A stretch of 57,308 nucleotides of DNA from positions 1 through 57,308 of the forward strand of contig JAZDJU010000049.1 in the NCBI GenBank assembly GCA_043803685.1, given 5' to 3'. This DNA comes from Candidatus Omnitrophota bacterium. GTDB taxonomy: Bacteria; Omnitrophota; Omnitrophia; Omnitrophales; Aquincolibacteriaceae. The notes beneath the pieces are model-generated. The model saw only the letters and a list, made by a program, of their open reading frames with translations. It was not told the DNA's origin and did not search any database. Below, piece after piece: positions 1-33,444 of the stretch; position 1 is the first letter of the stretch, and each line of letters begins with the position of its first letter. The position numbers were made by a program, and so were the translations under genes.

Positions 1-329
1 ATTGAAGCGAGCGCCAAAGCCGCAAGATGGACATCATCAGGATCGCGTTCCTTGAGAAGGCGCGCTGCTTGAGGGGTGTGACTGTGATAATGCTTCTCAT
101 CAAAAACTACCATGGGAAGCATCTTCATCTGCAATGAAAGCGACCGTTCGTCCAAACCATACTTGGAAGCAAGGCGAGGGATATACTCTTCGACTTCCAG
201 GACGTTGAACCGGGTCGTGATCAATTCGATCTCGGGGCGTAGAAAGACTTGAAGAGCTGCCTTTCCGATCACCGCAGAAAGAATGACATTACTGTCCGCG
301 GCGAGTTTTCTTAAATTCCCGGAAGTCAC
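1..329 (-). CDS. PIN-domain (VapC-like) toxin, truncated by window edge
   Basis: Not in the ORF track. Manual translation from GTG at 329 gives MTSGNLRKLAADSNVILSAVIG...LEVEEY...RDPDDVHLAALAL, with PIN acidic motifs (DSNV, E, DPDD). Overlaps the upstream antitoxin. Confidence 0.85.
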   Translation of the reverse strand, partial: MTSGNLRKLAADSNVILSAVIGKAALQVFLRPEIELITTRFNVLEVEEYIPRLASKYGLDERSLSLQMKMLPMVVFDEKHYHSHTPQAARLLKERDPDDVHLAALALAS

Positions 330-555
330 TCAGGATCTCTTTTTCTTGGATCTTTTTCTTGGAAAGCTCCCCGGCAAAGCGACCACCGAGAGTCGCCACA
401 AAATCCCTTTTCAGTTCGATCGGGATCTCCTGCGTGGCTTGCAACGGAAGAAAGCACCCCACCATCTTGCCGCTCTTCGTAATAATGACCATATCCCCTT
501 TGCGGGCATAGCCTGAAATACCAATGCGGAAACTTCTAATAGACGCCAGCTTCAT
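289..555 (-). CDS. Phd/YefM-type antitoxin
   Basis: 88 aa with a Phd-like N-terminus (ASIRSFR...VIITKSGKMVGCFLP), GAGG RBS, directly upstream of the PIN gene. Confidence 0.75.
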   Translation of the reverse strand: MKLASIRSFRIGISGYARKGDMVIITKSGKMVGCFLPLQATQEIPIELKRDFVATLGGRFAGELSKKKIQEKEILSDFREFKKTRRGQ

Positions 556-880: not shown

Positions 881-916
881 AAATACCCCGAACAGCAAAA
901 GCTGTTCGGGGTATTT
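881..916 (-). terminator. Intrinsic terminator after tRNA-Glu
   Basis: Perfect 16-bp inverted repeat AAATACCCCGAACAGC-aaaa-GCTGTTCGGGGTATTT abutting the CCA end, followed by a T-rich tract on the minus strand. Confidence 0.75.
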
Positions 917-993
917 GGCGTCCCCAAGGGGATTTGAACCCCTGTTACCAGGATGAAAACCTGGTGTCCTAGGCCAACCTAGACGATGGGGAC
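916..993 (-). tRNA. tRNA-Glu(TTC)
   Basis: Cloverleaf: acceptor GTCCCCA/TGGGGAC, anticodon arm CCAGG-TTTTCAT-CCTGG, T arm AGGGG-TTCAAAT-CCCCT, encoded CCA. Confidence 0.97.
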
Positions 994-1128: not shown

Positions 1129-4100
1129 TCAAGCGGCTGTCTGGATCCGGAGATAGCCTTGAATGGCGTTCATCACGACTGCCAGCAAGGTGGCATACTG
1201 AGAAGGCCGGTAAGTGTTTGCCGCATTCAAGTGTGCGTCCGATGCGACTTCCAACAAGGCTGTCGCGATCCCTGCGATCAACGCTTCCATGCGATTTCCA
1301 TCCTCAGTGACCCAATAGCTTTTGACATTTCTGCGCCGGGCCAAAAGCTTCTCGTCTCGAGCCATAAAAGCATCCGCTTCTTTTTCGCCCTCGAAGGATT
1401 TAAAGCGGTCGCTCCCGATCGCTGAAACGATCCGAAGCTGCCCTGGAGCCAACACGATCCCCTCTTGAGCCATGAGCTGATCAAATTGTTTCTGGATCGT
1501 TCGTAGAGTTTCGCCTTCGGCTTCCACATTGATCGAAAGACTGGCGTGCAAAGTCACCAGTAAACCAAGGACCATTGGAAAATGCCGGACAAATTCGTCC
1601 CAGGATTTATTGTCCAAACCCGCCAGGTTCACATGAAGTTGAGGCCCCATCGCGGCATCCCGGGAGGCAAGCGTCCTCACATCTCCGGGAATAGAAGCCA
1701 TGAAGATCTCGAGAAATTGACTGAGCCGCGCACCCGTGATCTGCCCTTCCTTTTCGGAGGCGCTCATGGCCTCGATCAATTGCATCGCGATCCAAAGTCG
1801 CGCTTTACCCGCATCTTGCGTCAATAAGACGATGCTTCGGTCGGAGTAGAGACCTCCCAGAATTTGCGCGGCAAATTCGATCGAAGGAATGTCCGTTTCC
1901 GGGACCAACGTCTTCACCTGATCGAAAACACCCAATTTCAGATCTTGCATCAAGGATTCTTGGATCTCCGCCGTCGACCCGCGAAGCTCCGAACGTTGGG
2001 ATGATCCTAGTGATCCCTTAAACGGCAATGTCCCCTGATAAAGCCTAAGTCCCTTCGCGGCTTGCGTCATAAAAGACAACCCTTCGGCGAAAAGAAAGAT
2101 CTGACGACGACGCGCTACGCCGATCCGGTCCTTCGATATCTGAGACGGAGGATAGAGATCCACGAGTTCCTCTGTCGGAAGACGCTTGAATTTGTGCCAA
2201 CCGTTCAAGATGCTAAGGACGTATTCGGGACTTTTCGTTTTATCGATTGAAGTCTGCCAGGGCTCAAGAGACCACTCCAGAACCGTCTCAGGGAATGTCT
2301 TTACCAGTTCCAAGAAATTTATTTGATAGCCGGGCGTCGTTTCAATAAAGCGCAGCATCCCTACGAGCCAGGCATCCGCCTCTTTTCGAATGTACTTCTT
2401 AAGAGCATCGTTACTGACTTCGCCTTTAGCGCGGAACGCGGTGGGGTTGTAGTAACCCATGGTCCATTTCTCCAGGATATTGCGCAAAGGCGTTAAGGTT
2501 TTTTCGTCTGCACGAAAACCTTTGTAGTGTTGCTTTTCAAAATCCGCGAAGATGCCGTCCACGGTCGTCTTCAGTTCTTGAATGCGCTTCGGATTCACGG
2601 ATTGATCTTTCAATAGGATCTCCTGGATCCCCTTCCATAGTCTGAAAAGATCCTGAAGCGCCCGAAACAAAGGCCTCGACTTCCAAATACCGGACATTTT
2701 TGTCCTGACTGCCGATACATTCATCCTCCCTAACTGATCAAAGAATTTCCCATCTTGTTTAATGAGCTTGGCCTGCAACGCGTCGAAAACGTGCGCCTGT
2801 TTCTCGTCCGGGCTCCGGATTTCCGAACGATTCGCCCCATTCTTTTCTAGTAATTGCGTGAGCGCATTTTGAGTAGCTTCCAGATTGAACGGCTTGGGCA
2901 ACGCGTCAAAAATAACTCCTTCGACCTCCAAGCTTCGAAACAAAGGCCCTATCACGGGATCTTTAAGATTTTCTTCCTTAAGTGCGCTCAAAAAAAGAAC
3001 GGGCACTCTTCTTATTTTCATCGCTTCAGCAACAAATTCCGGCCCCGTCATTTCCGGCATATTGACATCGGAAATGATAAAATCGAAAAACTCTGGATTC
3101 GCACTAAAGATCTCTAGCGCCTCTCTCCCATTACGGGCAATTTGCATATTCTTAGCCTTAACTCCTAAACTCTGCTGGAGGACTGCCGGCACGAGCATAT
3201 TCATAAGCGGATCATCATCGACAAGAAGAAACCGTTTCGAAGCAAGTTCTTTCGGCCGCAGCAACTGTCGTGATGCTTCAGCGATCCCTAAGATCTGGTG
3301 TCTTGCCGGGATAGGGCTGGCATCCAACGTCTTAGTGATGAATTGTTTGATCTTGGCTATCGACACCAGATCCAATAGCCAATCTTTATGGATCGCCATA
3401 GAATTTTCCCGGTAGGTCCTTTCGAGAGAGGCATCCGGATCCATCGACAAGATCTGCAACTGAGGACGATTCAAATCCGTAGCGATCGACGAAAGACCGG
3501 CGGGCGTCACTACAAGATCAGAAGCATTGATGATATTCCGAACGATGCCCATCGAAAGATTCTCGGGCACTTTCATAATAAGATGCGCTTTTGTAGGATA
3601 CTTCTTTGCAAGCTCAGCGGTCACATAATCTACCGCGGGACGGCCCTCTTGATTCAAAGGTCCACCCTGTGAAAAAACAAGATAAGCATCGTGGTCAGCA
3701 AGGATCCAGGACAGAGCATTCAACCATACTTCCGGCGTAACCTCATGCGGAGGTTTCCTTGAAAAAGTATTTACAAAAATGATCTTCCGCCCGTCACGAA
3801 TGGCCGCATCACCAAGCCCCTTCTTCTCGAACATGCTGAAAAGGATGCCTCGCAAACGCTCTCTTTCTTGATCACTCACCTCGGCATGTCCCAGATCCAG
3901 GGTCTGCAGGTCCATGCCATCGCTTAGGAGACCCATCTCGCGATAGATCCTGAGAACGAGCTCCTCATAAACAGGTCGATTCCCTGTGCCCTTCTTGGTG
4001 AGTCGCGTAAGGTCGTCGGTCCCTTTCACGAGCCTGGCTCCTTCCCGGTCCGTCATGAGTACTGCCTTCGGTTTGACCGTCCCCGTAGAGAATGTTTCAG

Positions 4101-7100
4101 GAAGCGGGTTCATATGAGAGAAAACAACCGGCGCGGAATATTCATGAGATCCTGAGCTAGAGACCCCCTGGGTCATCTGAAAAAGCCTCCCAAGATTTTC
4201 GCCTGGTTTGGTGAAGTCGAAAACCATATCGTAATGATTAGAAACAAGCCACATAGCAAGCCCTGCAGTTTTTCCCTCCAAAGCATCCCCGATAATTCCG
4301 TCATCGATAGGAATGACCTTCAAAATGCCGTCCACAGGTTCCAGAGGCGGCAATCTATTCTTTCGATGCTCCGCATCCATCACCGGAAAAACTTTCCCGA
4401 CGAAATGGTCGGAGGAAAACTGGTTGGGATAATCGACCGCCAGATGGAGCTCCCATTCCGGAAATTTCTTCTGCAAAAGCCGCACAAAATGAGAGTAAAG
4501 CATCCACTCCCGACTCATGCTCTCTTTTCCGTACTTTTGATTCCCGAAAATGAAAACTTTCTTCACCGAATCGGCGGACATTTTTTCAAGCGGCCTTTCA
4601 ACCTCCCCCGAGTTCCTCATTTCAGAACGCTGTGTGAGATGAGGAGGCCAGAAAGTGAATTCGCCGACAGGATCTCGGAAGATCTTTTCTAGATCTTCAA
4701 GGGGGATCGGCTTCCTGAAGAAATGGACGGGTCTTTGAGCGGCAAGCTTGTTGACCACTACACGAAAAGGGCCGGCATCTTCCTCCTTCAGACTGGCCAT
4801 CATAAACACTATCGGAATATCACTGAAACGTTCCGGCATCTTCTGAACCCATTCGGTCCCCTTCATGCCTGAGATCTGAAATTCTGTCAAAATGGCGTCC
4901 GGAGTCCACGTTTCCAGATTTTTCAACGCCTCCGCCGCCGAATAAACCTGTCGCGCCTGAAAACCCACGACCTTCAGCATTCGAGCTATCACATCGGCTA
5001 CATTTGGATCATTATCGATCACCAGAATATTTTGAATCGGCTTCGCCAAAGGCTGTCTGTTCCCCTCACGGACCTCTGAACGTTGTGCTTCCAGTTCTTT
5101 AAATATCGCTACTAACATTTTCGCATCGTAAGGTTTGTCAACAAAATAGACCGTGTGCTGCGCTTCCCTTAGAACTTTCACCGCCAGATCAAATGCAGTT
5201 TGATCCTTAATGCGGCCGCTCATAAAAACAACCGGTACATGCTCAAAACCTGGCATTTTGGATGCCGTCAGGACCCATTCGGGGCCTGTCATCCCTGGCA
5301 TCTGGACGTCCGAAAGAATGAAGTCCGGAACATACGTGTTGAGTCTTCCTAAAGCCTCCTCACCGGAAGACACTGACTCCGCTTGGAAACCAGCCCTTTG
5401 AAGCTGGCGAACCGCCATATTCGCTACCATTTCTTCATCATCTACGACCAGGATTTTCTTGATCTCATTGGCCAAAGGCTGCCGGTTTTCACGAACCTCG
5501 GAACGCGCTTCGGGCCAATATTCAAAATTCAGGTGTGGCTCTGCGAGTAATGGCTTCAAAACAGATGGCGAAAAGGGCTTTCCCAATAAATGAATCGGGC
5601 GCACTTTGGCCAAGTCCTGCATCGTCTTCTGAAGTGCCTCATCTGCAATCCACCCGGTCAAAAATATAACGGGAATCTTAGCAAGCTCCGGTATTTCAGA
5701 AAATCTTTGGACCATTTCGGGTCCCATCATCCCAGGCATCGAGATGTCCGATAGCACAATGTCCGGGGTAAAATCTCTAAGCATTTCTAAGGCCCTCGGT
5801 CCCGAATCGGCGGTAACAACCTCGAATCCATGCCCGTCGTGAAGCACCCTCACTGCAAGATCTCGCGATAATTTCTCGTCATCCACCACCAGGATCTTTT
5901 GGATCGGTTTCGCCAAAGGCTTTCGAACCTCCGAACGTACCTCGGGCCAATATTTGAAATGCACTTCCGGTTCTGCGAACAATGTTTGCATGGAATTTGG
6001 AGGAAATGGTTTACCTAAAAAGTGGGTCGGATGTCGCTCGGAAAGCGCCTCGATGGCCTGATCTAATGCCACCTGATCTCCCACGTAAGCGCTCATGAAA
6101 ACAACGGGTACGCTTTCCAACCCCGGCATCTGGGCTGCTTTCAGGACCCACTCAGGACCTGTCATCCCGGGCATCAGGACATCTGTAAGAATGGCGTCCG
6201 GAGTAAATTTTTCGAGTATTTCTAGCGCTTGAGCCCCCGAATCGGCCGTCACCACTTCAAACCCAGCAGGCTTAAGTAGGCGTTTTATGGAAAACGTGAT
6301 CGATTCTTCATCATCCACAATCAGGATGTTTTTAATCCGCTTCGCCAGAGGCTCCCGATTTTCACGAACCTCCGAACGTGTTGCTGCCCCATAAGAGACC
6401 GGTGGCCGGCCAGACACAAGATTGGAAAAATCAACGCCAGCTCCGGATCCAACCTTCGCCAAAGCACGCTGAAAGGAAATAGCGCCGGTAATGGCGGGCG
6501 AAGCGATCGTTGAGTTTTTGGAAGTAAGCGTTCGGGGCATAAAACGCAAGGCCTTCCCGTCGGGGCCCGAGGATTGCACCACGACGGAAGAGGAAAGCAC
6601 CGGGTGCGCCTGGACCGCCTTCGCTACGGCCGCGGTAACGCTCGCCGGTTCCATATGATATTTCTCTGAGAGAAGCGGCGTTGCGACCTCGATCATTTCC
6701 CTGAAAAGAAGCGCTTCCTGTTTCGTAGCAAAGGGATTCTTGACCTTGAAATAAGCGGTCAGGTCCGCGTGATCCTCGGCCATCACTTTCTGATAGAGCT
6801 CCCCGCGATCGGTCCGGCTAATGTGCGGCATGAGCGTCACGTAGCCGATCTCCTGCTCTCGTAAGATCGCGTCGATACCGTCTGTGTGAAAGCCTCCGGT
6901 GATCAGGACCGTGACCCTCTTTTCTTTCCCGCTATTTCCCTTCCCTAAAGCCAGCGCGTTTTCGACAAGGATCCGGTCCCGGAGAAGCGTTGAGTCATAA
7001 AAATAATAGGCCTTGGAAAGCGCGGCTTTCAACTCGGGAGAATTTTTCACGGCAGCGGCCATCGCTTCGCTTTCACGTGCCATCCGCTCATATTCGTCGC

Positions 7101-8487
7101 GCGTCAATTCGAGGGAAAGAATTTTTTCCAGCAGATCAAAAGAATTCAGACGCGAGACCAGCTCTTTTTCGAGGTGGGTCGTCGCAAGCTTCTCGACGAG
7201 CATCCCCTCCAGAGCGTTCATCTCATCGAGAAGTCCTGCCGCCTCGACCTCCTCTTGAAGGATGAACAACTCGAAACTCCGGAGAAAGGGTTCGTGGCCT
7301 TCGAGCGAGATAGAATATTTCCTGGAAAAGAGAAACAGCTGTTCGAGGAGTTTTCGGGGATAAAGCGCCGCCTCGGTGGCGGGACGAACAGCCGCTCCGC
7401 CTTGCGAACCCGAGAGTAGACCGTTTTCATGGCCCCAGAATTCAAGGGACCGAACAAAGTCCTGTCCGGTGATGTCTTTCGCGTTTTTTTTCATCGCGGC
7501 AAGAACATTCGCCCAATCTTCCCGGGCCTTCGCGGCATTGAAACTCTTTTGGACCTCAGCCGCCAAAAGCATTTTCATGAGGTTCGGAAAACGCAATTGC
7601 TCAAGTGGATCTTTGAGATCGATCTGGAGGGTTTTGGTGGCCTGCTTTTTCAAATACTGAACATAGGCTTGAAGGTCGGGGGCTCCGCCCACCCGGTCCG
7701 GATAATACTTCCCCTCCTTACGACGTTTCCGCTCCTTCAAAAAATCGAGCAGGTCTGCGTTCAAACCCCGCGAGACTTCGGCTTCTAATAGGGCCCGAAG
7801 GGGGGTCAAACGAGTTTGAATTTCATCCCGTTTAAAAAGAAGTTCCCGGTATGTTTTTAGATTCTCGCGATAAAGATCAATGTCTTCGACGCCGCTTACC
7901 CGTACGGCGTTTTGCGTACGGCGTTCCACGTCCGCCATTTTCAGACCCACATTTTTTAGGCGCTCGCCGTAGTCCGTACTCCGTACGCTGGACGTATTCG
8001 CTTCTTGCAAAAGATAAAGCTCCGCGCCGCCCAGTTCGCCTTTTTTGAGAAGATCGTCAACGACCGCCTGGTTGGCTTCCGGAAATTTTTTGAAAAATTG
8101 CAGGTATTCCGGATGAAGGGGCCCCGCGACACCCTCGACGCCGATCGCGAGGTTGGGGTATTTCTGTGCTAAAAACTTGAGGATCCCGGCGATGTTCTTC
8201 TGAGCTTCGGGATTCGCGTGAGCATCCTGGATATGAACGACGAACTCTTGCGAAGCAGTTCCCGCGGGCGGCTCCCAGGAGGACACGAGAGAGCCGAGTT
8301 CAGCAGGAATGGCATAGAGATCTTTTCGAAGGCCATCCGACTCCTTAACTTTGCCTTCAAAGTTAAGCCTTTCAGAAGAGGCAAAGGCTTGAGGCAGACT
8401 TCCAGTGAGCGTAGTCACCGTAAAAATGATGGCCACAAGTAAAGAAATCCCCCTACACATCAACGGTCTACTAGATAAAGTTGTCAT
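1129..8487 (-). CDS. Giant 2452-aa modular protein: signal peptide, TIKI/ChaN/EreA-like domain, 4 tandem REC, GT9-like, REC, two unknown domains
   Basis: Signal peptide ending PQAFA; HIQDAH / GVEG / RD / TGGFH motifs; five receiver domains (IL[IV]VDD...D..MPGM.G...KP[FY] pattern); seven RSExR linkers. Confidence 0.9.
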   Translation of the reverse strand: MTTLSSRPLMCRGISLLVAIIFTVTTLTGSLPQAFASSERLNFEGKVKESDGLRKDLYAIPAELGSLVSSWEPPAGTASQEFVVHIQDAHANPEAQKNIAGILKFLAQKYPNLAIGVEGVAGPLHPEYLQFFKKFPEANQAVVDDLLKKGELGGAELYLLQEANTSSVRSTDYGERLKNVGLKMADVERRTQNAVRVSGVEDIDLYRENLKTYRELLFKRDEIQTRLTPLRALLEAEVSRGLNADLLDFLKERKRRKEGKYYPDRVGGAPDLQAYVQYLKKQATKTLQIDLKDPLEQLRFPNLMKMLLAAEVQKSFNAAKAREDWANVLAAMKKNAKDITGQDFVRSLEFWGHENGLLSGSQGGAAVRPATEAALYPRKLLEQLFLFSRKYSISLEGHEPFLRSFELFILQEEVEAAGLLDEMNALEGMLVEKLATTHLEKELVSRLNSFDLLEKILSLELTRDEYERMARESEAMAAAVKNSPELKAALSKAYYFYDSTLLRDRILVENALALGKGNSGKEKRVTVLITGGFHTDGIDAILREQEIGYVTLMPHISRTDRGELYQKVMAEDHADLTAYFKVKNPFATKQEALLFREMIEVATPLLSEKYHMEPASVTAAVAKAVQAHPVLSSSVVVQSSGPDGKALRFMPRTLTSKNSTIASPAITGAISFQRALAKVGSGAGVDFSNLVSGRPPVSYGAATRSEVRENREPLAKRIKNILIVDDEESITFSIKRLLKPAGFEVVTADSGAQALEILEKFTPDAILTDVLMPGMTGPEWVLKAAQMPGLESVPVVFMSAYVGDQVALDQAIEALSERHPTHFLGKPFPPNSMQTLFAEPEVHFKYWPEVRSEVRKPLAKPIQKILVVDDEKLSRDLAVRVLHDGHGFEVVTADSGPRALEMLRDFTPDIVLSDISMPGMMGPEMVQRFSEIPELAKIPVIFLTGWIADEALQKTMQDLAKVRPIHLLGKPFSPSVLKPLLAEPHLNFEYWPEARSEVRENRQPLANEIKKILVVDDEEMVANMAVRQLQRAGFQAESVSSGEEALGRLNTYVPDFILSDVQMPGMTGPEWVLTASKMPGFEHVPVVFMSGRIKDQTAFDLAVKVLREAQHTVYFVDKPYDAKMLVAIFKELEAQRSEVREGNRQPLAKPIQNILVIDNDPNVADVIARMLKVVGFQARQVYSAAEALKNLETWTPDAILTEFQISGMKGTEWVQKMPERFSDIPIVFMMASLKEEDAGPFRVVVNKLAAQRPVHFFRKPIPLEDLEKIFRDPVGEFTFWPPHLTQRSEMRNSGEVERPLEKMSADSVKKVFIFGNQKYGKESMSREWMLYSHFVRLLQKKFPEWELHLAVDYPNQFSSDHFVGKVFPVMDAEHRKNRLPPLEPVDGILKVIPIDDGIIGDALEGKTAGLAMWLVSNHYDMVFDFTKPGENLGRLFQMTQGVSSSGSHEYSAPVVFSHMNPLPETFSTGTVKPKAVLMTDREGARLVKGTDDLTRLTKKGTGNRPVYEELVLRIYREMGLLSDGMDLQTLDLGHAEVSDQERERLRGILFSMFEKKGLGDAAIRDGRKIIFVNTFSRKPPHEVTPEVWLNALSWILADHDAYLVFSQGGPLNQEGRPAVDYVTAELAKKYPTKAHLIMKVPENLSMGIVRNIINASDLVVTPAGLSSIATDLNRPQLQILSMDPDASLERTYRENSMAIHKDWLLDLVSIAKIKQFITKTLDASPIPARHQILGIAEASRQLLRPKELASKRFLLVDDDPLMNMLVPAVLQQSLGVKAKNMQIARNGREALEIFSANPEFFDFIISDVNMPEMTGPEFVAEAMKIRRVPVLFLSALKEENLKDPVIGPLFRSLEVEGVIFDALPKPFNLEATQNALTQLLEKNGANRSEIRSPDEKQAHVFDALQAKLIKQDGKFFDQLGRMNVSAVRTKMSGIWKSRPLFRALQDLFRLWKGIQEILLKDQSVNPKRIQELKTTVDGIFADFEKQHYKGFRADEKTLTPLRNILEKWTMGYYNPTAFRAKGEVSNDALKKYIRKEADAWLVGMLRFIETTPGYQINFLELVKTFPETVLEWSLEPWQTSIDKTKSPEYVLSILNGWHKFKRLPTEELVDLYPPSQISKDRIGVARRRQIFLFAEGLSFMTQAAKGLRLYQGTLPFKGSLGSSQRSELRGSTAEIQESLMQDLKLGVFDQVKTLVPETDIPSIEFAAQILGGLYSDRSIVLLTQDAGKARLWIAMQLIEAMSASEKEGQITGARLSQFLEIFMASIPGDVRTLASRDAAMGPQLHVNLAGLDNKSWDEFVRHFPMVLGLLVTLHASLSINVEAEGETLRTIQKQFDQLMAQEGIVLAPGQLRIVSAIGSDRFKSFEGEKEADAFMARDEKLLARRRNVKSYWVTEDGNRMEALIAGIATALLEVASDAHLNAANTYRPSQYATLLAVVMNAIQGYLRIQTAA

Positions 8488-8582: not shown

Positions 8583-8612
8583 AGTATACACACCAATCCA
8601 AGGATTTGTCAA
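8583..8612 (-). promoter_or_regulatory. sigma70 promoter of the giant gene
   Basis: TTGACA (8612-8607), 18-nt spacer, TATACT (8588-8583), about 95 nt upstream of the ATG. Confidence 0.6.
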
Positions 8613-8761: not shown

Positions 8762-10666
8762 TCAGGAGGGGGTCTCTTGCTTCATCTTCTCCAAATACTC
8801 CCACCGTGCGTACATTTGGGCGAGCTCTGCCGAATACGCCTCGGCCTGCAGTTTGACGCGGGAGATATCTACGGGATCCTTTTGATAAAAGCCAGGCGCG
8901 GCCATCAGATCGTAAAGCCCGGCCTGCCCCGCTTCGGCCTTCTCGATCTTTTTCAGAAGGTCTTTCAGTTCTCGCTGTTCGGCCGGAGAGAGCTTCGAAG
9001 CGCCTGCGCTCTTTTCATTCACAGCCGGGGCTTTCGCCTTTGCAGTCTTCGCGACCTGCGCTTCGGGTTTCACGACACGCTGACTCAACCAATCATCGTA
9101 GCCGCCCGGATATTCACGGACCATGCCCCGGCCTTCCATCGCCAGAGTCGAAGTGACCACATTGTTCAGGAATGAACGGTCGTGACTGACCAGAAGCACC
9201 GTGCCTGCGTATTCCACAAGCAATTCCTCGAGCAATTCCAGGGTCTCCACATCAAGATCATTCGTGGGCTCATCCATCACGAGAAGATTAGAGGGTTTGG
9301 CAAAAAGCCGTGCGAGAAAAAGACGGTTCCGCTCCCCTCCGGACAATACCTTCACCGGGGTCCTGGCCCGGTCCGGAGAAAACAGAAAATCCTGCAAATA
9401 ACCGATGATATTCTTGGCTCTTCCATTCACGATCACCGTGTCTCCGGATTCGCTCACATTTTGAGCGACCGTTTTCTCAAGATCGAGCTGTTCCCGCAAC
9501 TGATCATAATAAGCGATCTCAAGCCCCGTCCCCACATGCACGGAACCCTTTTCGGGTTCGATCTGTCCCAGAAGAAGACGCAGCAAAGTTGTTTTACCGC
9601 ACCCGTTCGGTCCGATCACACCGATCTTGTCCCCGCGCATGATCTTGGCTGAAAAATTACGGATCAGACATTCGCCGCCGTATCCGTGACTGATATTGAG
9701 GACTTTTGCGATCAAGTGTCCGGAAGGCTCCGTGACCTGCGCTTTCATGCGGACTTTTCCGATCTCTCGCCTCTCGGCTCGTTTCTTGTCTCTCAGCCGC
9801 TCGAGCGCCACCACGCGCCCCTGATTGCGAGTGCGCCGCGCCTTGATCCCTTGCCGGATCCAGATTTCTTCTTTCTCCAGCTTCTTCTCAAACCGCGCAC
9901 GCTCAGCCTCTTCGGCATCAAGCGCCATCTGTTTGCGCTCGAGAAAGGTCGGATAGTCACACGCCCAACTGAAAAGCCGTCCACGGTCCAGTTCCACGAT
10001 CCGCGTCGCCAGATGCGTCATGAACGTCCGGTCATGGGTCACAAAGAAAAGAGTTCCGGGATAACCCTTGAGAAAGCCTTCCAGCCAATCGATCGACTCG
10101 ATATCCAGATGGTTGGTCGGTTCATCCAGAAGAAGGATCTCAGGCTTCAGAACAAGCGCCCGTGCCAAGAGCGCCCGTTTCTTTTGGCCCCCCGACAATT
10201 TCTCGAACAAGCTCTCAGGATCCAGCTTCACATGCGAGATCACTTCCTCGACCTCACGGTTCGTCTCCCAGCCCTGCGTGTGGTCCATTTCAGCCTGAAG
10301 GGCGTCCAACTGTCGCATGAGCTGCTCCGAGTACTCGGTCTGAAGGCGGTGATTCACGTGATGATAATCGCTTAAGAGCTTCACGCGCTCGCCCAAACCC
10401 GAAAGCACAAGATCGAACACATTCCCCGAGATCCCCGAAGGGACTTCCTGAGGCAGATGCGTGACCCGGATGCCTTTTTGATAGACCACCTTGCCCGAGT
10501 CGGACTTCAGGTGACCGGCCATCACTTTCATGAGAGTGGTTTTCCCCACTCCGTTACGGCCCAGAAGAGCCACGCGCTCCCCTTGTTCTAACTGGAGGTC
10601 CATATGATCAAAAAGAGGCGGCCCCCCGTAGGCCAATGTGATGTCCTGCAGACTGATCAGTGCCAT
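8762..10666 (-). CDS. uup: ABC-F family ATPase Uup
   Basis: Two ABC cassettes (GRNGVGKT/LSGGQ/LLDEPTNHLD; GPNGCGKT/LSGGE/DEPTNDLD), linker EEIWIRQGIKARRTRN, C-terminal coiled coil ending ARWEYLE. Confidence 0.9.
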   Translation of the reverse strand: MALISLQDITLAYGGPPLFDHMDLQLEQGERVALLGRNGVGKTTLMKVMAGHLKSDSGKVVYQKGIRVTHLPQEVPSGISGNVFDLVLSGLGERVKLLSDYHHVNHRLQTEYSEQLMRQLDALQAEMDHTQGWETNREVEEVISHVKLDPESLFEKLSGGQKKRALLARALVLKPEILLLDEPTNHLDIESIDWLEGFLKGYPGTLFFVTHDRTFMTHLATRIVELDRGRLFSWACDYPTFLERKQMALDAEEAERARFEKKLEKEEIWIRQGIKARRTRNQGRVVALERLRDKKRAERREIGKVRMKAQVTEPSGHLIAKVLNISHGYGGECLIRNFSAKIMRGDKIGVIGPNGCGKTTLLRLLLGQIEPEKGSVHVGTGLEIAYYDQLREQLDLEKTVAQNVSESGDTVIVNGRAKNIIGYLQDFLFSPDRARTPVKVLSGGERNRLFLARLFAKPSNLLVMDEPTNDLDVETLELLEELLVEYAGTVLLVSHDRSFLNNVVTSTLAMEGRGMVREYPGGYDDWLSQRVVKPEAQVAKTAKAKAPAVNEKSAGASKLSPAEQRELKDLLKKIEKAEAGQAGLYDLMAAPGFYQKDPVDISRVKLQAEAYSAELAQMYARWEYLEKMKQETPS

Positions 10667-11414: not shown

Positions 11415-12194
11415 TTATTCTTTATGCTCCGCCTCGTTCATCATATCCCGCAGTGTCAGAACGATGCTCATGGGTTCATGGGCGGGATTCTCAATGATCT
11501 CAAGAGACATCTCCGCACGCTGGATCACCGACTGATGGGGATCCTTCTTCTCGATCCGGAACGTTTTCGGAGCCATCACACAATCACTTAACATGCTCCG
11601 CGGAATGGAAACAGCATAGCGTTGGAAAATAAACTCCAGAAAATTAGCGTTGATGAACCCCTCCCCCGGCGTGAGATAGCGCACAGCGGCCGGATTGAGA
11701 TTCGTCACGATCCATTCGGGATTGCACACGATCATGGGCTGACTCATCTCGAAAACAAGCCGCAACAACCTTTCATTCTCCCCCAAAGCCTCCTCACTGG
11801 CACTGATCCTCAGAAGGGACCGGACCCGGACGATCAGTTCGACCATGCTAAAAGGTTTGGTGATAAAATCATCACATCCCGCCTCGATCCCCCGGAGCTT
11901 GTCCTCCTCGGCGTTCATGCCCGTCAACAGGACCACGGGAATTGCGCGCGTGCGCTCATCCGAACGCAACCGCCGCAGCACCTCCAGACCCGACGTGCCA
12001 GGCATCATAACATCCAACAGAATAAGATCCGGAATTTCTTTTGAGAGTTGCTTCAGCGCGTCTTCTCCGGATTCTGAGAAAAGGAGCTTGTACCCTTGCG
12101 GCGAAAGATAGATCTCAAGGATCTTAAGCATTTGCCTATCATCGTCCACGCACAATAGGGTCTGCTTCATTGGAACCTTCATAGTCCTCCTCAA
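11415..12194 (-). CDS. Response regulator (REC + PAS-like domain)
   Basis: LLCVDDD...LILLDVMMPG...LLTG...DFITKPF, then a PAS-like segment (PMIVCN..W.VTNLNPAA). Confidence 0.85.
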   Translation of the reverse strand: MRRTMKVPMKQTLLCVDDDRQMLKILEIYLSPQGYKLLFSESGEDALKQLSKEIPDLILLDVMMPGTSGLEVLRRLRSDERTRAIPVVLLTGMNAEEDKLRGIEAGCDDFITKPFSMVELIVRVRSLLRISASEEALGENERLLRLVFEMSQPMIVCNPEWIVTNLNPAAVRYLTPGEGFINANFLEFIFQRYAVSIPRSMLSDCVMAPKTFRIEKKDPHQSVIQRAEMSLEIIENPAHEPMSIVLTLRDMMNEAEHKE

Positions 12195-12562
12195 ACGGCT
12201 TCGATAAACCGGCGGATCTCTTCAGCGAAAGTCCGCGTATCGATCGGCTTGGGTAAAAACAACTTTCCATTAAAAGCCCTGATCTCTTCCATCATCTCGC
12301 CACTCACGCTGGCCGTTACAAAAATCACCGGAATGCCCCGAGTCTCGGGCGCTTCCTGCAAAGCCTTGGCGAGTTGAGTCCCTCGCATATCCGGAAGCCG
12401 CACGTCCGCCACGATCGCATCCGGCCTTTCTTTTCGCGCAAGAACGAGTCCGCTTGCGCCATCCCTAGCCTCGAGAACCTCCATGCCCGCCACATCCAGG
12501 AGATCCTTCTCCAGCATCCTGTTTTTTTCGTCATCCTCAATGATCAAGACTCGTTTTTTCAT
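12191..12562 (-). CDS. Single-domain response regulator (DivK/CheY-like)
   Basis: MKKRVLIIEDD...IVADVRLPDMRG...FVTAS...LPKPID; ATG overlaps the kinase stop codon (ATGA). Confidence 0.9.
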   Translation of the reverse strand: MKKRVLIIEDDEKNRMLEKDLLDVAGMEVLEARDGASGLVLARKERPDAIVADVRLPDMRGTQLAKALQEAPETRGIPVIFVTASVSGEMMEEIRAFNGKLFLPKPIDTRTFAEEIRRFIEAV

Positions 12563-15500
12563 TTCAAGATCCCTCCTGTTGGGATGGTGAACTTCACGCT
12601 CGTCCCCTTCCCGACCCCCTCCGACTCGATCCATATCTTGCCGCCGTGAAGCTCGATTATTTTTCGGGAAATCGTCAGTCCGAGCCCGGTTCCTTCCGTC
12701 TCTTGCGTACAAAGATCTCCAAGGCGTTGAAAAGCGATGAACACCCTTTCAAAATTTTCAGGCGAGATGCCAACCCCCGAATCCCACACGACCCCTTCGA
12801 CCCCGGCCCCTACCTTCTGGATCCGGATCCCGACCTTCCCTCCGTCCGGGGTGAATTTGATCGCATTAGACAACAGGTTGTAAATGACCTGCTTGATCTT
12901 GCGCTGATCCGCATAGATCTCTCCAAGATCTCCGGAGACCTCCATCACAGGTTTGATCCGCTTCGCGCGGGCCTGATTCTCCATCATCCGAAAAACCTCT
13001 TCGATGGTGCTTTTAAGCGAAAAGGAGGACGCCTCCATCACCATTTTCCCGGACTCCACCTTCGACAGGTCCAGGACATCATTGATAAGGGATAGCAAAT
13101 GCTGTCCGCTGAGGAGGACATTTTGGGCGTATTTTTTCTGTCGCTCGTTGAGCGGACCGAATCGTTCGTCAAAGAGGACTTCTGAAAACCCGATGATGGA
13201 GTTCAGAGGTGTCCGGAACTCATGCGACACATTCGCCAAAAATTCATTCTTCGCCCGGCTGGCCCGTTTCAGCTCTTCATCCGTCGACTGCAGCTTCTGA
13301 AAACTACGCACAAGCTCCTCGGTCCTTTCCTTCACCTGTTGCTCAAGATTATCATGAGATCTTTTCAGGGCCTCTGCCAACCGCTTGTTCTCGGTGATGT
13401 CACGCCATAGACAATGAAGGATGTTCCGGCCATGGATCACAAGAGACGTCAGCGAAACTTCCACCGCGAATAATTCCCCGTCGGCTTTTTTGTAGACCCA
13501 TTCGAACCGGTGGTACCCTTGATCCAAAGCGATCTTCATCATCTCATTCGCCTTCTCAAAGGAATCTCTTACGTCAGGCTGTTCCGGGGGGGACAACTCC
13601 GAAGGATGACGCTTCAAAAACTCTTCCCGTGTGGCATACCCGAGCATCTGAACTGTAGCCTCATTGCAATCCACAAATTTGTCACCGTCGATCAAAAGAA
13701 TGGCATCCTGGGAGGTATGCAAAACATCCATAAACCGTTTCTCGCTCTCCTGCAAAGCCTCCTCTGTTCTCTTGCGCTCCGAAATATCGCGCATACTTCC
13801 GAGCAGCATCATCTCCCCGTTGATCTTTACGGGATAAGTCCGGATCTCCACTGCAACAGAGGAACCATCTTTCCTGTCGAGCTCATACTCCGTCGGGCCC
13901 GTGGAATGTCCCAAAGCGTTTTGGGCAATGGCCGCAGCCATTGGGGGCACATCCGACGAAGACAATATTCCTGATCTCAAAAAATCCTTTCCGATCAGTT
14001 CTTCGATCTTATATCCGCTTAATTCCTCCGTCACTCTGTTGCCATCGACAAAAACACCGTTAAGATCACAAAGATAGAGCCCGTCCGGCGCATAGGCAAA
14101 AAGGACCTTGAGCTTTTCTTCAGAATCCCGCAGTCTCTCCTCGGCTCTCTTGCGATCAGAGATGTCGATCCCCACACCCACCAAGAGAGGAACGTTATCA
14201 AGGATGACACGATGTCCCGTAAAGTAAAAGAACGTCTTCTTGCCGTTTTTGCTTACTAATTCGGCTTCGAGAACAGCTTCCCCCTTCGCAAAAACCTTTT
14301 CAAGCCCCTCTTTCACTCTATTTTTCTCATGATCAGAAAAAAGATTCAGCGGGTGCATCCCCATCAGTTCTTCCTGCGAATACCCCGACACTTTGACGAG
14401 ATTATCATTGACCCGAAGAAATTTCCCTTTATTGTCAAAAAGATAGAATATTCCGGGGAGACTCTCAATGAGCAATTCGGAGAGGTGCCTGGCCTTCAAG
14501 CTCTCCGCTTCCATCCGTTTGAGCCCAGAAATATCACGAGCAAAACTACAGATCTTCAAAAGCTCGCCGGAATCGGCAAAGTAAAGGTTGACGTTCCAAA
14601 GCATCTCGAAAACCCGGCCCTCCTTGCTGACTTGACGGTTCTGGAAAGTGGCCTGCTTTTCTTTACCGCGCACCCACCCCTCAAAAATCGCCTTGGTCCT
14701 TTCCTGGTCATCCACATGAATAAAATCAAACGCTGAACGACCGATACAATCTTCGGGCTTGATGCCAAAGATCTTTTCCGCGCTGTGGTTCACGTAGGTG
14801 AGACGACCCCGCCGGTCCACGATCGTGATCAGATCTTCGGTCCCCTCCACCAACTCACGATAGCGTTCATCGGCCTTGCGAAACGCCTTCTCCGCCTCAT
14901 CTCTTCCGGCGATCTCTTTTTCCAAAGGAATGTAAACCGCCACGCCAAAAATAACACCCACGATCACAAGCGCTATAAAAAAATAGATCAGCGTTCGTAT
15001 GCCAAACTGCGTGATCTCGCGCGGCATCGAGACCTTAAGCATCAAAACGTCTTTTCCGGTGATGTTTTTCAGAAGGCTGTATCCAGCGACCGTCTTACCA
15101 TCTAGATCACTGAGAAAGGTCCGGCTTCCCTTGAGAAATGCCGTGCGCGCAACTGTAAAATCGGGCGGTGTGGAGATGCCCGCAATTTTTTCCGCGCTCA
15201 ATTCCACGCGCACGATCTGGCTAAAACGCCTCATCTCATCCGCGTCCAGGCGCGCCCCAAAGATCACCGTCCCACGGATCGGCCCCATGCCATTGCTTTT
15301 TACGATCGGCCTTGAAACTAACATCAAAGGCCCATCGGAAAGCATCACGATCCCCGCCACAGAACTATTCTCATTCTGATGCGCCAGTAAAGTGCCCAGA
15401 GCATCTTTAAACTCTGCTCGAAGCAACTGCCCCGCTGCCTCATCACTTTCTCGATGATGGTTGAATACCAATTCGCCTCGCGCGTTGAAGAACAGCATCA

Positions 15501-15819
15501 TGTCAATTTGGAGGGTCTCAAGGGTAAGGGGGGTCAGGTTCGACGTGATGTAGGCCTCATTTTTATCCTCAATAAAAGCATACGTATCATCCCAGATGGT
15601 CCAGTCCCCGATCTTGACGGCGAGGTTATTCAGCGTGTCAGCGACAACTTCCTGAGATCGGAAAATGTTCCTCTGAACCGACAATTTCTCGAGTTTGGAA
15701 AATCCCCCCATCACCGCGATCCACGAAACGATAAATATCGCGGCCAGAAGGATGGTCAAACCGAGAGCGATCGTGCGAAACGTTCTCTTATGGATCTTAA
15801 TTGTCTTTATTGGCGCCAT
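12559..15819 (-). CDS. CHASE4 - 4xPAS - HisKA - HATPase sensor kinase
   Basis: Two TM helices around CHASE4 (DWTIWDDTYAFI), four PAS/PAC (RDIS/RDIT ends), H box ANVSHEFRTPL, N/G boxes NLLSNAIKFT, GTGLGL. Start placed at MAPIKT. Confidence 0.92.
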   Translation of the reverse strand: MAPIKTIKIHKRTFRTIALGLTILLAAIFIVSWIAVMGGFSKLEKLSVQRNIFRSQEVVADTLNNLAVKIGDWTIWDDTYAFIEDKNEAYITSNLTPLTLETLQIDMMLFFNARGELVFNHHRESDEAAGQLLRAEFKDALGTLLAHQNENSSVAGIVMLSDGPLMLVSRPIVKSNGMGPIRGTVIFGARLDADEMRRFSQIVRVELSAEKIAGISTPPDFTVARTAFLKGSRTFLSDLDGKTVAGYSLLKNITGKDVLMLKVSMPREITQFGIRTLIYFFIALVIVGVIFGVAVYIPLEKEIAGRDEAEKAFRKADERYRELVEGTEDLITIVDRRGRLTYVNHSAEKIFGIKPEDCIGRSAFDFIHVDDQERTKAIFEGWVRGKEKQATFQNRQVSKEGRVFEMLWNVNLYFADSGELLKICSFARDISGLKRMEAESLKARHLSELLIESLPGIFYLFDNKGKFLRVNDNLVKVSGYSQEELMGMHPLNLFSDHEKNRVKEGLEKVFAKGEAVLEAELVSKNGKKTFFYFTGHRVILDNVPLLVGVGIDISDRKRAEERLRDSEEKLKVLFAYAPDGLYLCDLNGVFVDGNRVTEELSGYKIEELIGKDFLRSGILSSSDVPPMAAAIAQNALGHSTGPTEYELDRKDGSSVAVEIRTYPVKINGEMMLLGSMRDISERKRTEEALQESEKRFMDVLHTSQDAILLIDGDKFVDCNEATVQMLGYATREEFLKRHPSELSPPEQPDVRDSFEKANEMMKIALDQGYHRFEWVYKKADGELFAVEVSLTSLVIHGRNILHCLWRDITENKRLAEALKRSHDNLEQQVKERTEELVRSFQKLQSTDEELKRASRAKNEFLANVSHEFRTPLNSIIGFSEVLFDERFGPLNERQKKYAQNVLLSGQHLLSLINDVLDLSKVESGKMVMEASSFSLKSTIEEVFRMMENQARAKRIKPVMEVSGDLGEIYADQRKIKQVIYNLLSNAIKFTPDGGKVGIRIQKVGAGVEGVVWDSGVGISPENFERVFIAFQRLGDLCTQETEGTGLGLTISRKIIELHGGKIWIESEGVGKGTSVKFTIPTGGILK

Positions 15820-15926
15820 AAAGTCTCTGTGGATACAGCGCTGCCCGACGCAGAGGATTGAGTGCGGAGAATCTCTTGGGTGTATATTTCTTCCATATTT
15901 TCCCCAATTTAAAATTTCCAACAGAA

Positions 15927-33371: not shown

Positions 33372-33444
33372 TGAGCCCGGATGGATTCGAACCATCGACA
33401 CCCGCCTTAAAAGGGCGATGCTCTACCAACTGAGCTACGGGCCC
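33372..33444 (-). tRNA. tRNA-Lys(TTT)
   Basis: GGGCCCGTAGCTCAGTTGGTAGAGCATCGCCCTTTTAAGGCGGGTGTCGATGGTTCGAATCCATCCGGGCTCA; CCA not encoded. Confidence 0.97.

What the first reader, a model, noticed from the sequence alone, without database searches (positions are those of the whole stretch)
1129..8487. Giant secreted polyprotein whose cargo modules are delimited by seven RSE[V/M/I/L]R motifs
Seen: RSExR occurs seven times, at aa 704, 851, 995, 1136, 1287, 1887 and 2165 (DNA 6364-6378, 5923-5937, 5491-5505, 5068-5082, 4615-4629, 2815-2829, 1981-1995). Every copy lies at an apparent module boundary, dividing the protein into a 703-aa N-terminal unit, REC1-4 (141-151 aa each), a GT9-like+REC5 unit (600 aa), an unknown helical unit (278 aa) and a C-terminal unit (288 aa). 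The motif persists between unrelated modules while the Ser codon varies (TCG/TCC/TCA/TCT), which suggests protein-level selection. The protein has a Sec-type signal peptide, yet REC and GT domains normally act in the cytoplasm. Inference: a pro-protein that is exported and cut at RSExR to release effectors into a host or prey cell, analogous to MARTX toxins but with a different architecture.
Basis: partly seen in the sequence, partly recalled or inferred. Interest (0 to 1): 0.92.

Follow-up and report, generated by a model that had tools for sequence, protein, structure and literature searches.

The report
Punctuated export polyprotein of Omnitrophota
An uncultured bacterium strings whole enzymes and signalling proteins into large exported proteins and separates them with a five-residue tag that is the same across its genome but differs between lineages, which most likely marks where these giants are cut apart.

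Summary
Confirmed: seven RSE[VMIL]R copies at the stated places (0.04 expected). The gene is one of 15 paralogues in this Omnitrophota-type genome that share a signal peptide and a conserved head; the complete ones carry variable cargo and an [AS]A-ending tail. None of 172 motifs falls inside a Pfam domain (about 15 expected), and whole enzymes sit between motifs. The head has a TIKI/ChaN/EreA-type fold with invariant His-Glu-Arg-His, so it is a probable hydrolase. Cargo is almost cysteine-free (0.09% vs 1.1%), which fits export. The tag is a genome-level code: R[SA]ExR in four genomes, AxSLG, [AS]GFG, [GA]AR[LM]A or RxSTSG in five others, none found in seven. It follows the genome, not the head's clade (p-AU 3e-5), and also occurs in head-less polyproteins, so it is probably read in trans rather than by each protein's own head. 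Cleavage, the cutter and delivery into prey remain inferred. It is not a MARTX toxin. I found no description in print; published work says the cleavage points are unknown. This scan noted the motif and the TIKI-like head before on other DNA and on two other genes of this genome.

The parts
8583..8612 (-). sigma70-like promoter candidate (11 of 12 consensus matches, 18-nt spacer), about 95 nt upstream of the ATG
   Evidence: consensus match only (9 sites found vs 5.0 +/- 2.5 in shuffles)
1129..8487 (-). polyprotein gene, 2452 aa
8380..8487 (-). Sec/SPI-type signal peptide, aa 1-36; holds the protein's only Cys
   Evidence: sequence; similar leaders are seen in the 13 paralogues with an intact 5' end
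6793..8316 (-). head: TIKI/ChaN/EreA-type alpha/beta domain with a large helical insertion (aa 58-565); putative catalytic D88, H90, E118, R503, H534
   Evidence: AF2 pLDDT 87; fold matches ChaN, HopBA1, 2qgm, Bcr135, EreC; PF04187 E 4e-4; conservation
6379..6792 (-). end of the head unit; aa 657-703 low-confidence, probably a disordered linker
   Evidence: pLDDT <50 for model residues 600-646, a poorly aligned region
6364..6378 (-). junction motif 1 RSEVR (aa 704)
5938..6363 (-). REC1 module; phosphoacceptor Asp and Lys intact
5923..5937 (-). junction motif 2 RSEVR (aa 851)
5506..5922 (-). REC2 module; phosphoacceptor intact
5491..5505 (-). junction motif 3 RSEVR (aa 995)
5083..5490 (-). REC3 module; phosphoacceptor intact
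5068..5082 (-). junction motif 4 RSEVR (aa 1136)
4630..5067 (-). REC4 module; pseudo-receiver (Glu at the phosphoacceptor position, no Thr/Ser switch residue)
4615..4629 (-). junction motif 5 RSEMR (aa 1287)
3256..4614 (-). GT9-like (heptosyltransferase-type) glycosyltransferase, first part of the 600-aa module
   Evidence: homologous module in 10 of 24 nearest relatives at other positions
2830..3255 (-). REC5, fused to GT9 with no motif between them
2815..2829 (-). junction motif 6 RSEIR (aa 1887)
1996..2814 (-). unknown 273-aa module; homologues are motif-bounded modules in relatives
   Evidence: 4 direct BLAST hits among 24 relatives; no Pfam, NCBIfam or PDB match
1981..1995 (-). junction motif 7 RSELR (aa 2165)
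1132..1980 (-). tail unit: alpha/beta domain plus terminal amphipathic helix ending in -TAA
   Evidence: AF2 pLDDT 79.5; no specific fold match; one copy per genome in 13 of 14 congeners; 16 of 16 complete family ORFs end in AA/SA
916..993 (-). tRNA-Glu directly downstream, followed by a terminator at 880-917 (context only)

Best explanation
This is one member of a phylum-wide Omnitrophota system of exported polyproteins built as signal peptide + TIKI-fold hydrolase head + [tag - whole cargo protein]n + tag + tail ending in [AS]A. SHOWN: the tag is a protein-level signal placed between whole-protein modules; cargo is gained, lost and duplicated in tag-to-tag units; one tag serves nearly all paralogues of a genome and differs between lineages; it also occurs in proteins that lack the head.
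For: 0 of 172 motifs inside Pfam stretches vs about 15 expected, 0 of 10,000 permutations as low; hexokinase (6 and 7 aa from the flanking motifs), glycogen synthase, hybrid histidine kinase, beta-CASP nuclease and SecA-like units each lie whole inside one module. 687 R[SA]ExR vs 27 expected in 150 relatives, only 3 of them before the head's GGFH. In-frame only, 144 distinct codon strings in 172 copies, codon preference differs by genome. Orthologues keep head and tail but vary in cargo. The motif-by-genome table is diagonal. AxSLG-bearing heads are not a clade, p-AU 3.3e-5. Head-less tagged polyproteins occur in G022 (4508 aa, 8 tags; 2595 aa, 15 tags) beside a stand-alone head gene, and in G076 (1120 aa, 2 tags). 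Cys 0.087% vs 1.10% genome-wide, and 0.08% vs 0.94% in homologous stretches. Five secretins; no T6SS VipB and no T3SS/flagellar FHIPEP found in G000. TIKI-fold enzymes include sequence-specific endopeptidases (PMC6254334).
Against: No cleavage, expression or localisation data. No trans-acting cutter was identified; C39 and S8 were not found in G000 (91% complete). Seven of 16 genomes have head and tail but no detectable tag, so the tag is dispensable for part of the family. In head-less G022 proteins some RSELR copies lie inside the presumed tail domain or terminal helix. 13 of 84 BLAST alignments to other G000 proteins span a motif (all are multi-REC proteins aligned over REC1-4). Fold Z-scores are middling (6.0-8.2), unrelated folds score 7.3-7.5 on shorter alignments, and Foldseek found nothing. 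Cys depletion could also reflect an oxic lifestyle of the tagged lineages. Only 1-15 proteins per genome were sampled, and AxSLG rests mostly on one genome.
Confidence: 0.55

Rival explanations
1. Cis-autoprocessing (first reader, MARTX-like): each protein's own TIKI head cuts its chain at the tag, and stand-alone heads serve the head-less partners.
For: Invariant H90/E118/R503/H534 in 158-162 of 163 rows, the rest gaps. His-Glu spacing of 28 equals RRSP and Bcr135. Stand-alone heads lie directly upstream of head-less partners in six of the 20 loci examined. No other candidate protease was found in G000.
Against: The tag follows the genome across at least 4-6 independent head lineages. No head column tracks tag class, and active-site residues are the same in RSE, AxSLG, GARLA and tag-less genomes (206 cores). 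Heads with intact residues also occur without any tag.
Confidence: 0.2
2. The tag is not cut. It is a docking or handling site, for a chaperone or export motor, spaced between folding units.
For: No cleavage shown. Closely spaced double tags (13 of 154 intervals under 40 aa) and tags inside tail domains in G022 suit a binding site. A genome-wide code fits one binding factor as well as one protease.
Against: A strict five-residue consensus with unconstrained, polar flanks and tags at both ends of every whole enzyme, including next to the signal peptide in head-less proteins, resemble the junction sites of processed polyproteins (established knowledge).
Confidence: 0.15
3. The tag is cut, but the cargo works in the producer's own periplasm, on its surface or at the contact zone, not inside another cell.
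For: The route by signal peptide ends in the periplasm; no injection system was found. West-Roberts et al. propose surface and cell-wall roles.
Against: REC domains with intact phosphoacceptors, kinases, glycolytic enzymes, an RNase and a GNAT need cytoplasmic substrates (established knowledge).
Confidence: 0.25
4. The motif is the footprint of a DNA recombination site or microhomology used to shuffle modules, with no protein function.
For: Ser is AGY in only 2 of 158 copies vs about 30% in context, and the first Arg is CGY in 85% vs 45-49% in context. Modules move tag-to-tag.
Against: 144 different 15-mers in 172 copies; last Arg uses AGR at background rate; no flank conservation; the commonest DNA form occurs 123 times in frame vs 8 or fewer in each other frame; preferred codons differ between genomes with the same peptide. 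Copying from a founder explains the bias.
Confidence: 0.04

Closest known systems
Omnitrophota giant multi-enzyme ('Archaeovorin'-type) proteins (West-Roberts et al., bioRxiv 10.1101/2023.11.21.568195; bioRxiv 10.64898/2026.06.07.730766; Seymour et al., PMC10066038)
   Same: Same phylum by all named relatives; signal peptide; unannotated N-terminal region; same cargo repertoire (REC, HK, GT, starch synthase, PGM, hexokinase, GNAT, SecA-like); cleavage was hypothesised.
   Different: Those papers treat proteins over 10 or 30 kaa, propose C39/S8 as cutters and state that cleavage points are unknown. Term searches found no junction motif, TIKI head or linker in them. This protein is 2.5 kaa, has no clear TM span after the signal peptide and no C39 or S8.
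MARTX toxins (PMC6254334, passages read)
   Same: Constant ends with exchangeable cargo between them; release by proteolysis is the proposed logic; the MARTX effector RRSP is a TIKI-fold endopeptidase.
   Different: No RTX repeats, no cysteine protease domain (no Cys after the signal peptide), Sec signal instead of type I secretion, a strict five-residue tag shared by many genes of a genome, and probably no self-processing.
TIKI/TraB/ChaN/erythromycin-esterase superfamily (ChaN 2g5g, HopBA1 5t09, Bcr135 2rad, EreC 6xcq, RRSP)
   Same: Parallel beta-sheet core; x-His, Glu 28 residues later, conserved Arg, second His.
   Different: Large helical insertion; first acidic residue is Asp (137 of 163 rows) rather than Glu; fused to giant cargo chains; substrate unknown.
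Viral polyproteins with junction motifs; phage and conjugative-element polyvalent proteins (both recalled, not looked up)
   Same: Whole proteins joined by short strict motifs that differ between lineages; a peptidase-like domain in the chain.
   Different: Cellular, chromosomal, Sec-exported and multi-copy (15 in G000; 13-57 profile matches in some other genomes); the code is shared across genes rather than tied to one chain's protease; no match in the phage collection.

Membership tests
MARTX toxin | Gly-rich repeat regions at both termini, type I secretion | tested here: not met
   0 GGxGxD in this protein, 1 in 20 family ORFs; no RTX Pfam hit; N-terminal Sec-type signal instead
MARTX toxin | InsP6-activated cysteine protease domain (C80) in the chain | tested here: not met
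   no Pfam hit and no cysteine after aa 11; the genome search for PF11713 was uninformative because no control rang
MARTX toxin | variable cargo between constant ends | tested here: met
MARTX toxin | autoproteolytic release in a target cell | not testable with these tools
   needs experiment
TIKI/ChaN/EreA superfamily (head) | parallel beta-sheet core fold | tested here: met
   five members among the 26 best VIA-align rows: ChaN Z 8.2/rmsd 6.5/184 aa, HopBA1 7.2/3.5/157, 2qgm 7.2/4.4/170, Bcr135 6.6/4.3/172, EreC 6.0/5.1/194, against about 90 aa for the best unrelated rows; PF04187 E 4e-4, below its cut-off; Foldseek blank
TIKI/ChaN/EreA superfamily (head) | 2His/2Glu catalytic set | tested here: inconclusive
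   H90, E118 and H534 are invariant; the first acidic position is Asp in 137, Asn 15, Thr 4, Ser 3, Glu 2 of 163 rows; equivalence is inferred from spacing, not from a visible superposition
TIKI/ChaN/EreA superfamily (head) | conserved basic residue near the active site (RRSP Arg-4001) | tested here: met
   R503 in 159 of 163 rows, 4 gaps; 31 aa before H534 vs 29 in RRSP
TIKI/ChaN/EreA superfamily (head) | peptidase or esterase activity | not testable with these tools
   ChaN, HopBA1 and PMT share the fold; PMT lacks the activity
Omnitrophota giant multi-enzyme proteins | Omnitrophota origin | tested here: met
   58 of 80 related loci are titled Omnitrophota/Omnitrophica/Omnitrophus, 1 Taenariivivens, 21 unnamed, none another phylum; ESM Atlas clusters agree. 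G000 itself is unnamed.
Omnitrophota giant multi-enzyme proteins | length over 10,000 aa (2026 preprint) or over 30,000 aa (2023 preprint) | tested here: not met
   2452 aa; one paralogue exceeds 10,126 aa
Omnitrophota giant multi-enzyme proteins | many distinct metabolic and signalling domains in one chain | tested here: met
   searches compared
Omnitrophota giant multi-enzyme proteins | N-terminal C39 or S8 peptidase | tested here: not met
   not in this protein; not found in G000 while controls rang (91% complete)
Polyprotein with cis-encoded, motif-matched protease | strict repeated junction motif between whole proteins | tested here: met
Polyprotein with cis-encoded, motif-matched protease | motif co-varies with the chain's own protease | tested here: not met
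Polyvalent proteins of phages and conjugative elements (recalled) | zincin-like metallopeptidase domain | not tested
   no such Pfam hit, but no dedicated profile was run

The most novel reading that the evidence does not exclude
Omnitrophota run an undescribed effector-delivery system: many Sec-exported polyproteins per cell carry whole cytoplasmic enzymes and signalling proteins, are handled through a conserved TIKI head and [AS]A tail, pass into a prey or host cell, and are cut apart according to a genome-wide five-residue code read by one fast-evolving (or host-supplied) protease, so that each lineage has its own punctuation.
Probability: 0.3. Interest if true: 0.95.

Novelty: categorically new. 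Interest (0 to 1): 0.84.

Why it matters
[quoted passage not shown] The tag gives exact candidate sites. It lets existing metaproteomes be searched for neo-termini and lets thousands of unannotated giants be parsed into single proteins (6,442 clusters at 50% identity share the head; 117 of 151 sampled genomes of the phylum). The genome-specific code predicts a trans-acting reader whose specificity has switched several times, and it says where not to look first: the chain's own head. The principle of a processed polyprotein is known. The head and tail match no Pfam or NCBIfam family above cut-off and the parts are not homologous to MARTX, which is why I rate it categorically new, with the mechanism still unproven.

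Tried and rejected
Foldseek on the head: no match at E <= 0.001. PDB sequence search with the head profile: nothing relevant. Tail fold: generic alpha/beta only, best Z 7.8, no assignment. Head-tail complex prediction: no answer (score 0.02; not evidence either way). Sequencing runs: none was listed, so expression is unchecked. Search for a trans cutter: C39 in 7 of 16 genomes, not G000, and not tracking the tag; S8 in 1 of 5; C14 in 0 of 5; C80 and C25 in 0 of 5 with silent controls. A single 'master' stand-alone TIKI orthologue was rejected: the 16 short or stand-alone heads are scattered over the tree. Specificity columns in the head: none found among 461 columns. No conserved neighbour gene, protease or secretion gene was seen by eye beside the G000 paralogues (84 neighbouring ORFs, not annotated by a tool). 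No tag was found by 3- and 4-residue word counts in G055, G150, G039, G113, G069, G065, G140; only Pro/Ala-rich linkers appeared. DxAMT, from an earlier scan note, occurred once in 80 loci. No phage match. A first genome-contig scan with a single sequence found nothing. Literature: 'RSEVR' gave 20 unrelated papers by listing; 'Omnitrophota'+'polyprotein' 0; a five-term polyprotein search 0; some searches gave the papers cited. Subscription journals are mostly not covered, Kizina et al. 2022 was not read, and bioRxiv supplements were closed and could hold motif or N-terminal domain analyses.
Full report
OBSERVATION. The ORF at 1129-8487 (-) encodes 2452 aa. The expectation from composition is 0.04, and 20,000 shuffles gave at most two. 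The segments measure 703, 147, 144, 141, 151, 600, 278 and 288 aa. Each of five REC domains lies inside one segment. REC1-3 and REC5 keep the phosphoacceptor Asp; REC4 has Glu. The 455-aa part before REC5 resembles GT9 by ESM Atlas features (0.95), though Pfam is blank and PDB gives WaaC only at E 1.3. REC1-4 are tandem duplicates, so the first four motifs are not independent; evidence for the motif has to come from other genes.

A FAMILY, NOT ONE GENE. The head region matches 14 other ORFs of G000. The 15 head-bearing ORFs hold 165 R[SA]ExR against 3.6 expected; 13 of 15 carry the motif, the exceptions being a contig-end fragment and a 739-aa cargo-less member. Five further 5'-truncated ORFs were added on the strength of the motif, giving 20 ORFs and 172 R[SA]E[VMALIT]R copies. 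All 16 of these that have a stop codon end in AA or SA, against 19 of 1,472 other ORFs of 300 aa or more. In other genomes 45 of 53 complete members end in Ala and 6 in Ser-Leu. The head finds 6,442 clusters at 50% identity. Of the best 150, 113 carry the motif: 687 R[SA]ExR against 27 expected, only 3 of them before the head's GGFH, and at least two copies in 93 of 108 proteins of 1,500 aa or more. The head profile matches 117 of 151 genomes sampled from the phylum and 47 of 47 from the family. Of 80 related loci with titles, 58 say Omnitrophota/Omnitrophica/Omnitrophus, one Taenariivivens (an Omnitrophota genus, recalled), 21 are unnamed, and none names another phylum.

THE MOTIF SEPARATES WHOLE PROTEINS. 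I tiled the 20 ORFs in fixed 500-aa windows blind to the motif and scanned 197 of 200 tiles with Pfam (best stretch per family only). None of 172 motifs lies inside a hit; about 15 were expected, and 0 of 10,000 permutations were as low. Pfam covers only 10% of the cargo, so most motifs lie in unannotated sequence. Multi-domain enzymes stay intact inside one module: hexokinase (6 and 7 aa from the flanking motifs), GT5+GT1 glycogen synthase, a PAS-PAS-HisKA-HATPase-REC kinase, a beta-CASP nuclease and a SecA-like unit. Flanks are poorer in hydrophobic residues (0.25 vs 0.33) and show no consensus. Among the 24 nearest relatives, head and tail stay (tail matched in 14 of 24; several others are fragments) while cargo changes. 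The GT9(+REC) module recurs in 10 of 24 at other positions, in most cases aligned from motif to motif. P0003, 74% identical in the head, has five RECs and no GT9. 94 of 231 modules have no homologue in the set. The tail occurs once per genome in 13 of 14 congeners. Against this: 13 of 84 BLAST alignments to other G000 proteins cross a motif, all from multi-REC proteins laid over REC1-4, and some RSELR copies in head-less G022 proteins lie in the presumed tail domain.

PROTEIN OR DNA SIGNAL. The 172 copies use 144 different 15-mers; the last Arg uses AGR at background rate; flanking DNA is not conserved. The commonest DNA form occurs 123 times in frame and at most 8 times in any other frame. 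Ser is AGY in only 2 of 158 copies and the first Arg is CGY in 85%, more than context explains, but other genomes with the same peptide prefer other codons. I read this as protein-level selection on copies spread by duplication.

THE HEAD. From memory, the IQDAH...EG...RD...GGFH pattern suggested the TIKI superfamily, and I tested that lead. Pfam gives ChaN/Tiki PF04187 at E 4e-4, below its cut-off, in 4 of 47 rows. The AF2 model (pLDDT 87) matches ChaN (Z 8.2, 184 aa), HopBA1 (7.2, 157), 2qgm (7.2, 170), Bcr135 (6.6, 172) and EreC (6.0, 194); unrelated folds reach Z 7.3-7.5 on about 90 aa. Foldseek found nothing. H90, E118, R503 and H534 are invariant in all non-gap rows of 163; D88 is Asp in 137. 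In RRSP the essential residues are E3900, H3902, E3930, R4001 and H4030 (PMC6254334, passages): the same order, the same His-Glu spacing of 28, and Arg-His 29 vs 31 here. The head is therefore a probable active hydrolase; activity and substrate are not shown.

THE TAG IS A GENOME-LEVEL CODE. I fetched 80 head-bearing ORFs from 15 other genomes, chosen for length from the match lists, and counted over-represented words. Observed/expected counts: R[SA]ExR in G000 165/3.6, G088 100/2.1, G100 62/1.2, G022 18/1.0; AxSLG in G076 79/1.6; [GA]AR[LM]A in G047 72/0.4 and G087 30/1.2; [AS]GFG in G068 17/0.6; RxST[ST]G or RQSxSG in G012 24/0.1. Off-diagonal counts are 0-5. Seven genomes show no tag. These patterns were defined from the same data, so the expected values are a guide only, and I had seen GARLA in an earlier scan note. 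The alternative tags sit at similar places, mostly 70-330 aa after GGFH and 150-400 aa before the end. On a tree of 37 heads from six genomes of one order, the tag needs 8 changes (minimum 2; as low in 3 of 200 shuffles, so there is some clustering), and monophyly of the AxSLG heads is rejected (p-AU 3.3e-5). Strongly supported clades mix tags, for example two G000 RSE heads with a G068 GFG head, and a G076 AxSLG head with three RSE heads (LG+G4, quick search; rows without a tag left out). Among 206 head cores no column tracks tag class, and the active-site residues are the same in tagged and untagged genomes. Complete stand-alone heads of 443-573 aa exist, six of them directly upstream of a head-less partner (20 loci examined). 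Head-less polyproteins with signal peptide, [AS]A end and the genome's tag occur in G022 and G076. Stand-alone heads are not one clade. The simplest reading is one reader per genome acting in trans, with the head serving a function common to all lineages. A pool of heads acting in trans is not excluded.

EXPORT. The leader has the form of a Sec/SPI signal (by eye). Family ORFs hold 0.087% Cys against 1.10% in 1,117 other genes; over homologous stretches the figures are 0.08% and 0.94%. Eight of nine tagged genomes have 0.00-0.10% (G012 0.42%), and the seven untagged ones 0.20-0.86%; lifestyle may confound this. G000 has five secretins and no VipB or FHIPEP match (91% complete). Omnitrophota carry type IV pili and Tad systems and are thought to be predators or parasites (PMC10066038, passages). 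Delivery into another cell is inferred from the cytoplasmic nature of the cargo only.

MECHANISM AND ODDS. Best reading (0.55): exported polyprotein, cut at the tag by a lineage-specific trans-acting endopeptidase, releasing REC and GT9 modules that probably act in a host or prey cytoplasm. Rivals: cutting by the chain's own head (0.2), an uncut docking tag (0.15), a DNA shuffling site alone (0.04); and, on a separate axis, cargo acting in the producer's own envelope (0.25).

COMPARISON WITH WHAT IS KNOWN. It works like MARTX toxins and viral polyproteins but fails MARTX membership (no repeats, no cysteine protease, Sec leader). It is a small relative of the Omnitrophota multi-enzyme giants. 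West-Roberts et al. (10.1101/2023.11.21.568195; passages and section 7 read) propose cleavage by C39 or S8 domains and state that cleavage points are unknown; C39 and S8 were not found in G000. The 2026 preprint (10.64898/2026.06.07.730766; passages and section 8 read) has no occurrence of 'motif', 'cleav', 'linker' or 'Tiki'. Searches found no description of the tag; bioRxiv supplements and most subscription papers were not visible. Earlier notes of this scan report the same motif, GARLA and a TIKI-like head on other DNA and on two other genes of this genome. They are unchecked notes and are not counted as support. I saw none that states the genome-versus-head test.

VERDICT. A real, strongly selected and phylum-wide feature that makes an open question directly testable. 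Processing and delivery are unproven. Interest 0.84.

Noticed in passing
G000:C114:46201-48417 (L011:16702-18918, +): 739-aa member with signal peptide, intact head and an ending in -KKAA but no cargo and no tag, head-to-head with a 5189-aa paralogue: a natural minimal construct.
   Followed up: partly
L131-L141 (G065, G113, G022, G076, G140, G069, G068, G150): Complete stand-alone TIKI-head genes of 443-573 aa; six lie directly upstream of a head-less large partner, several with a signal peptide and an -AA end.
   Followed up: partly
L231:5749-19395 and L232:390-8231 (G022:C9): Head-less tagged polyproteins flank a stand-alone head; the first tag is about 25-30 aa after the signal peptide, and some RSELR copies fall inside the tail domain or terminal helix.
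   Followed up: partly
G000 paralogues, e.g. C98:16272-32360, C67:3819-20063: 13 of 154 tag-to-tag intervals are under 40 aa (double tags with short spacers), possibly scars of module loss.
   Followed up: no
G055, G039 loci L050-L069: Six members in untagged genomes end in Ser-Leu instead of [AS]A, and these genomes are less cysteine-poor; tail ending, tag and Cys content may co-vary by lineage.
   Followed up: partly
G000:C10:2-11869: A paralogue carries TIM, phosphoglucomutase, phosphoglucose isomerase and enolase domains: part of glycolysis in one exported chain.
   Followed up: no
G000:C98, C59, C47, C114: Paralogues occur in tandem or divergent pairs and triples; no shared neighbour gene was seen.
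   Followed up: partly
window 3-555 (-): Two small overlapping ORFs that look like a PIN-domain toxin and antitoxin pair (by eye; no NCBIfam hit), downstream of tRNA-Glu.
   Followed up: partly
window 8762-10666 (-): Uup-like ABC-F ATPase directly upstream of the polyprotein gene.
   Followed up: yes
window 11415-15921 (-): Two response regulators and a PAS histidine kinase; ordinary housekeeping-type RECs, about 32-35% identical to the REC1 cargo module.
   Followed up: partly
window 33372-33444 (-): tRNA-Lys gene.
   Followed up: no
L080 (G076:C16) and P0123: A member with about 30 internal tandem repeats in its cargo besides 12 AxSLG-type tags.
   Followed up: no
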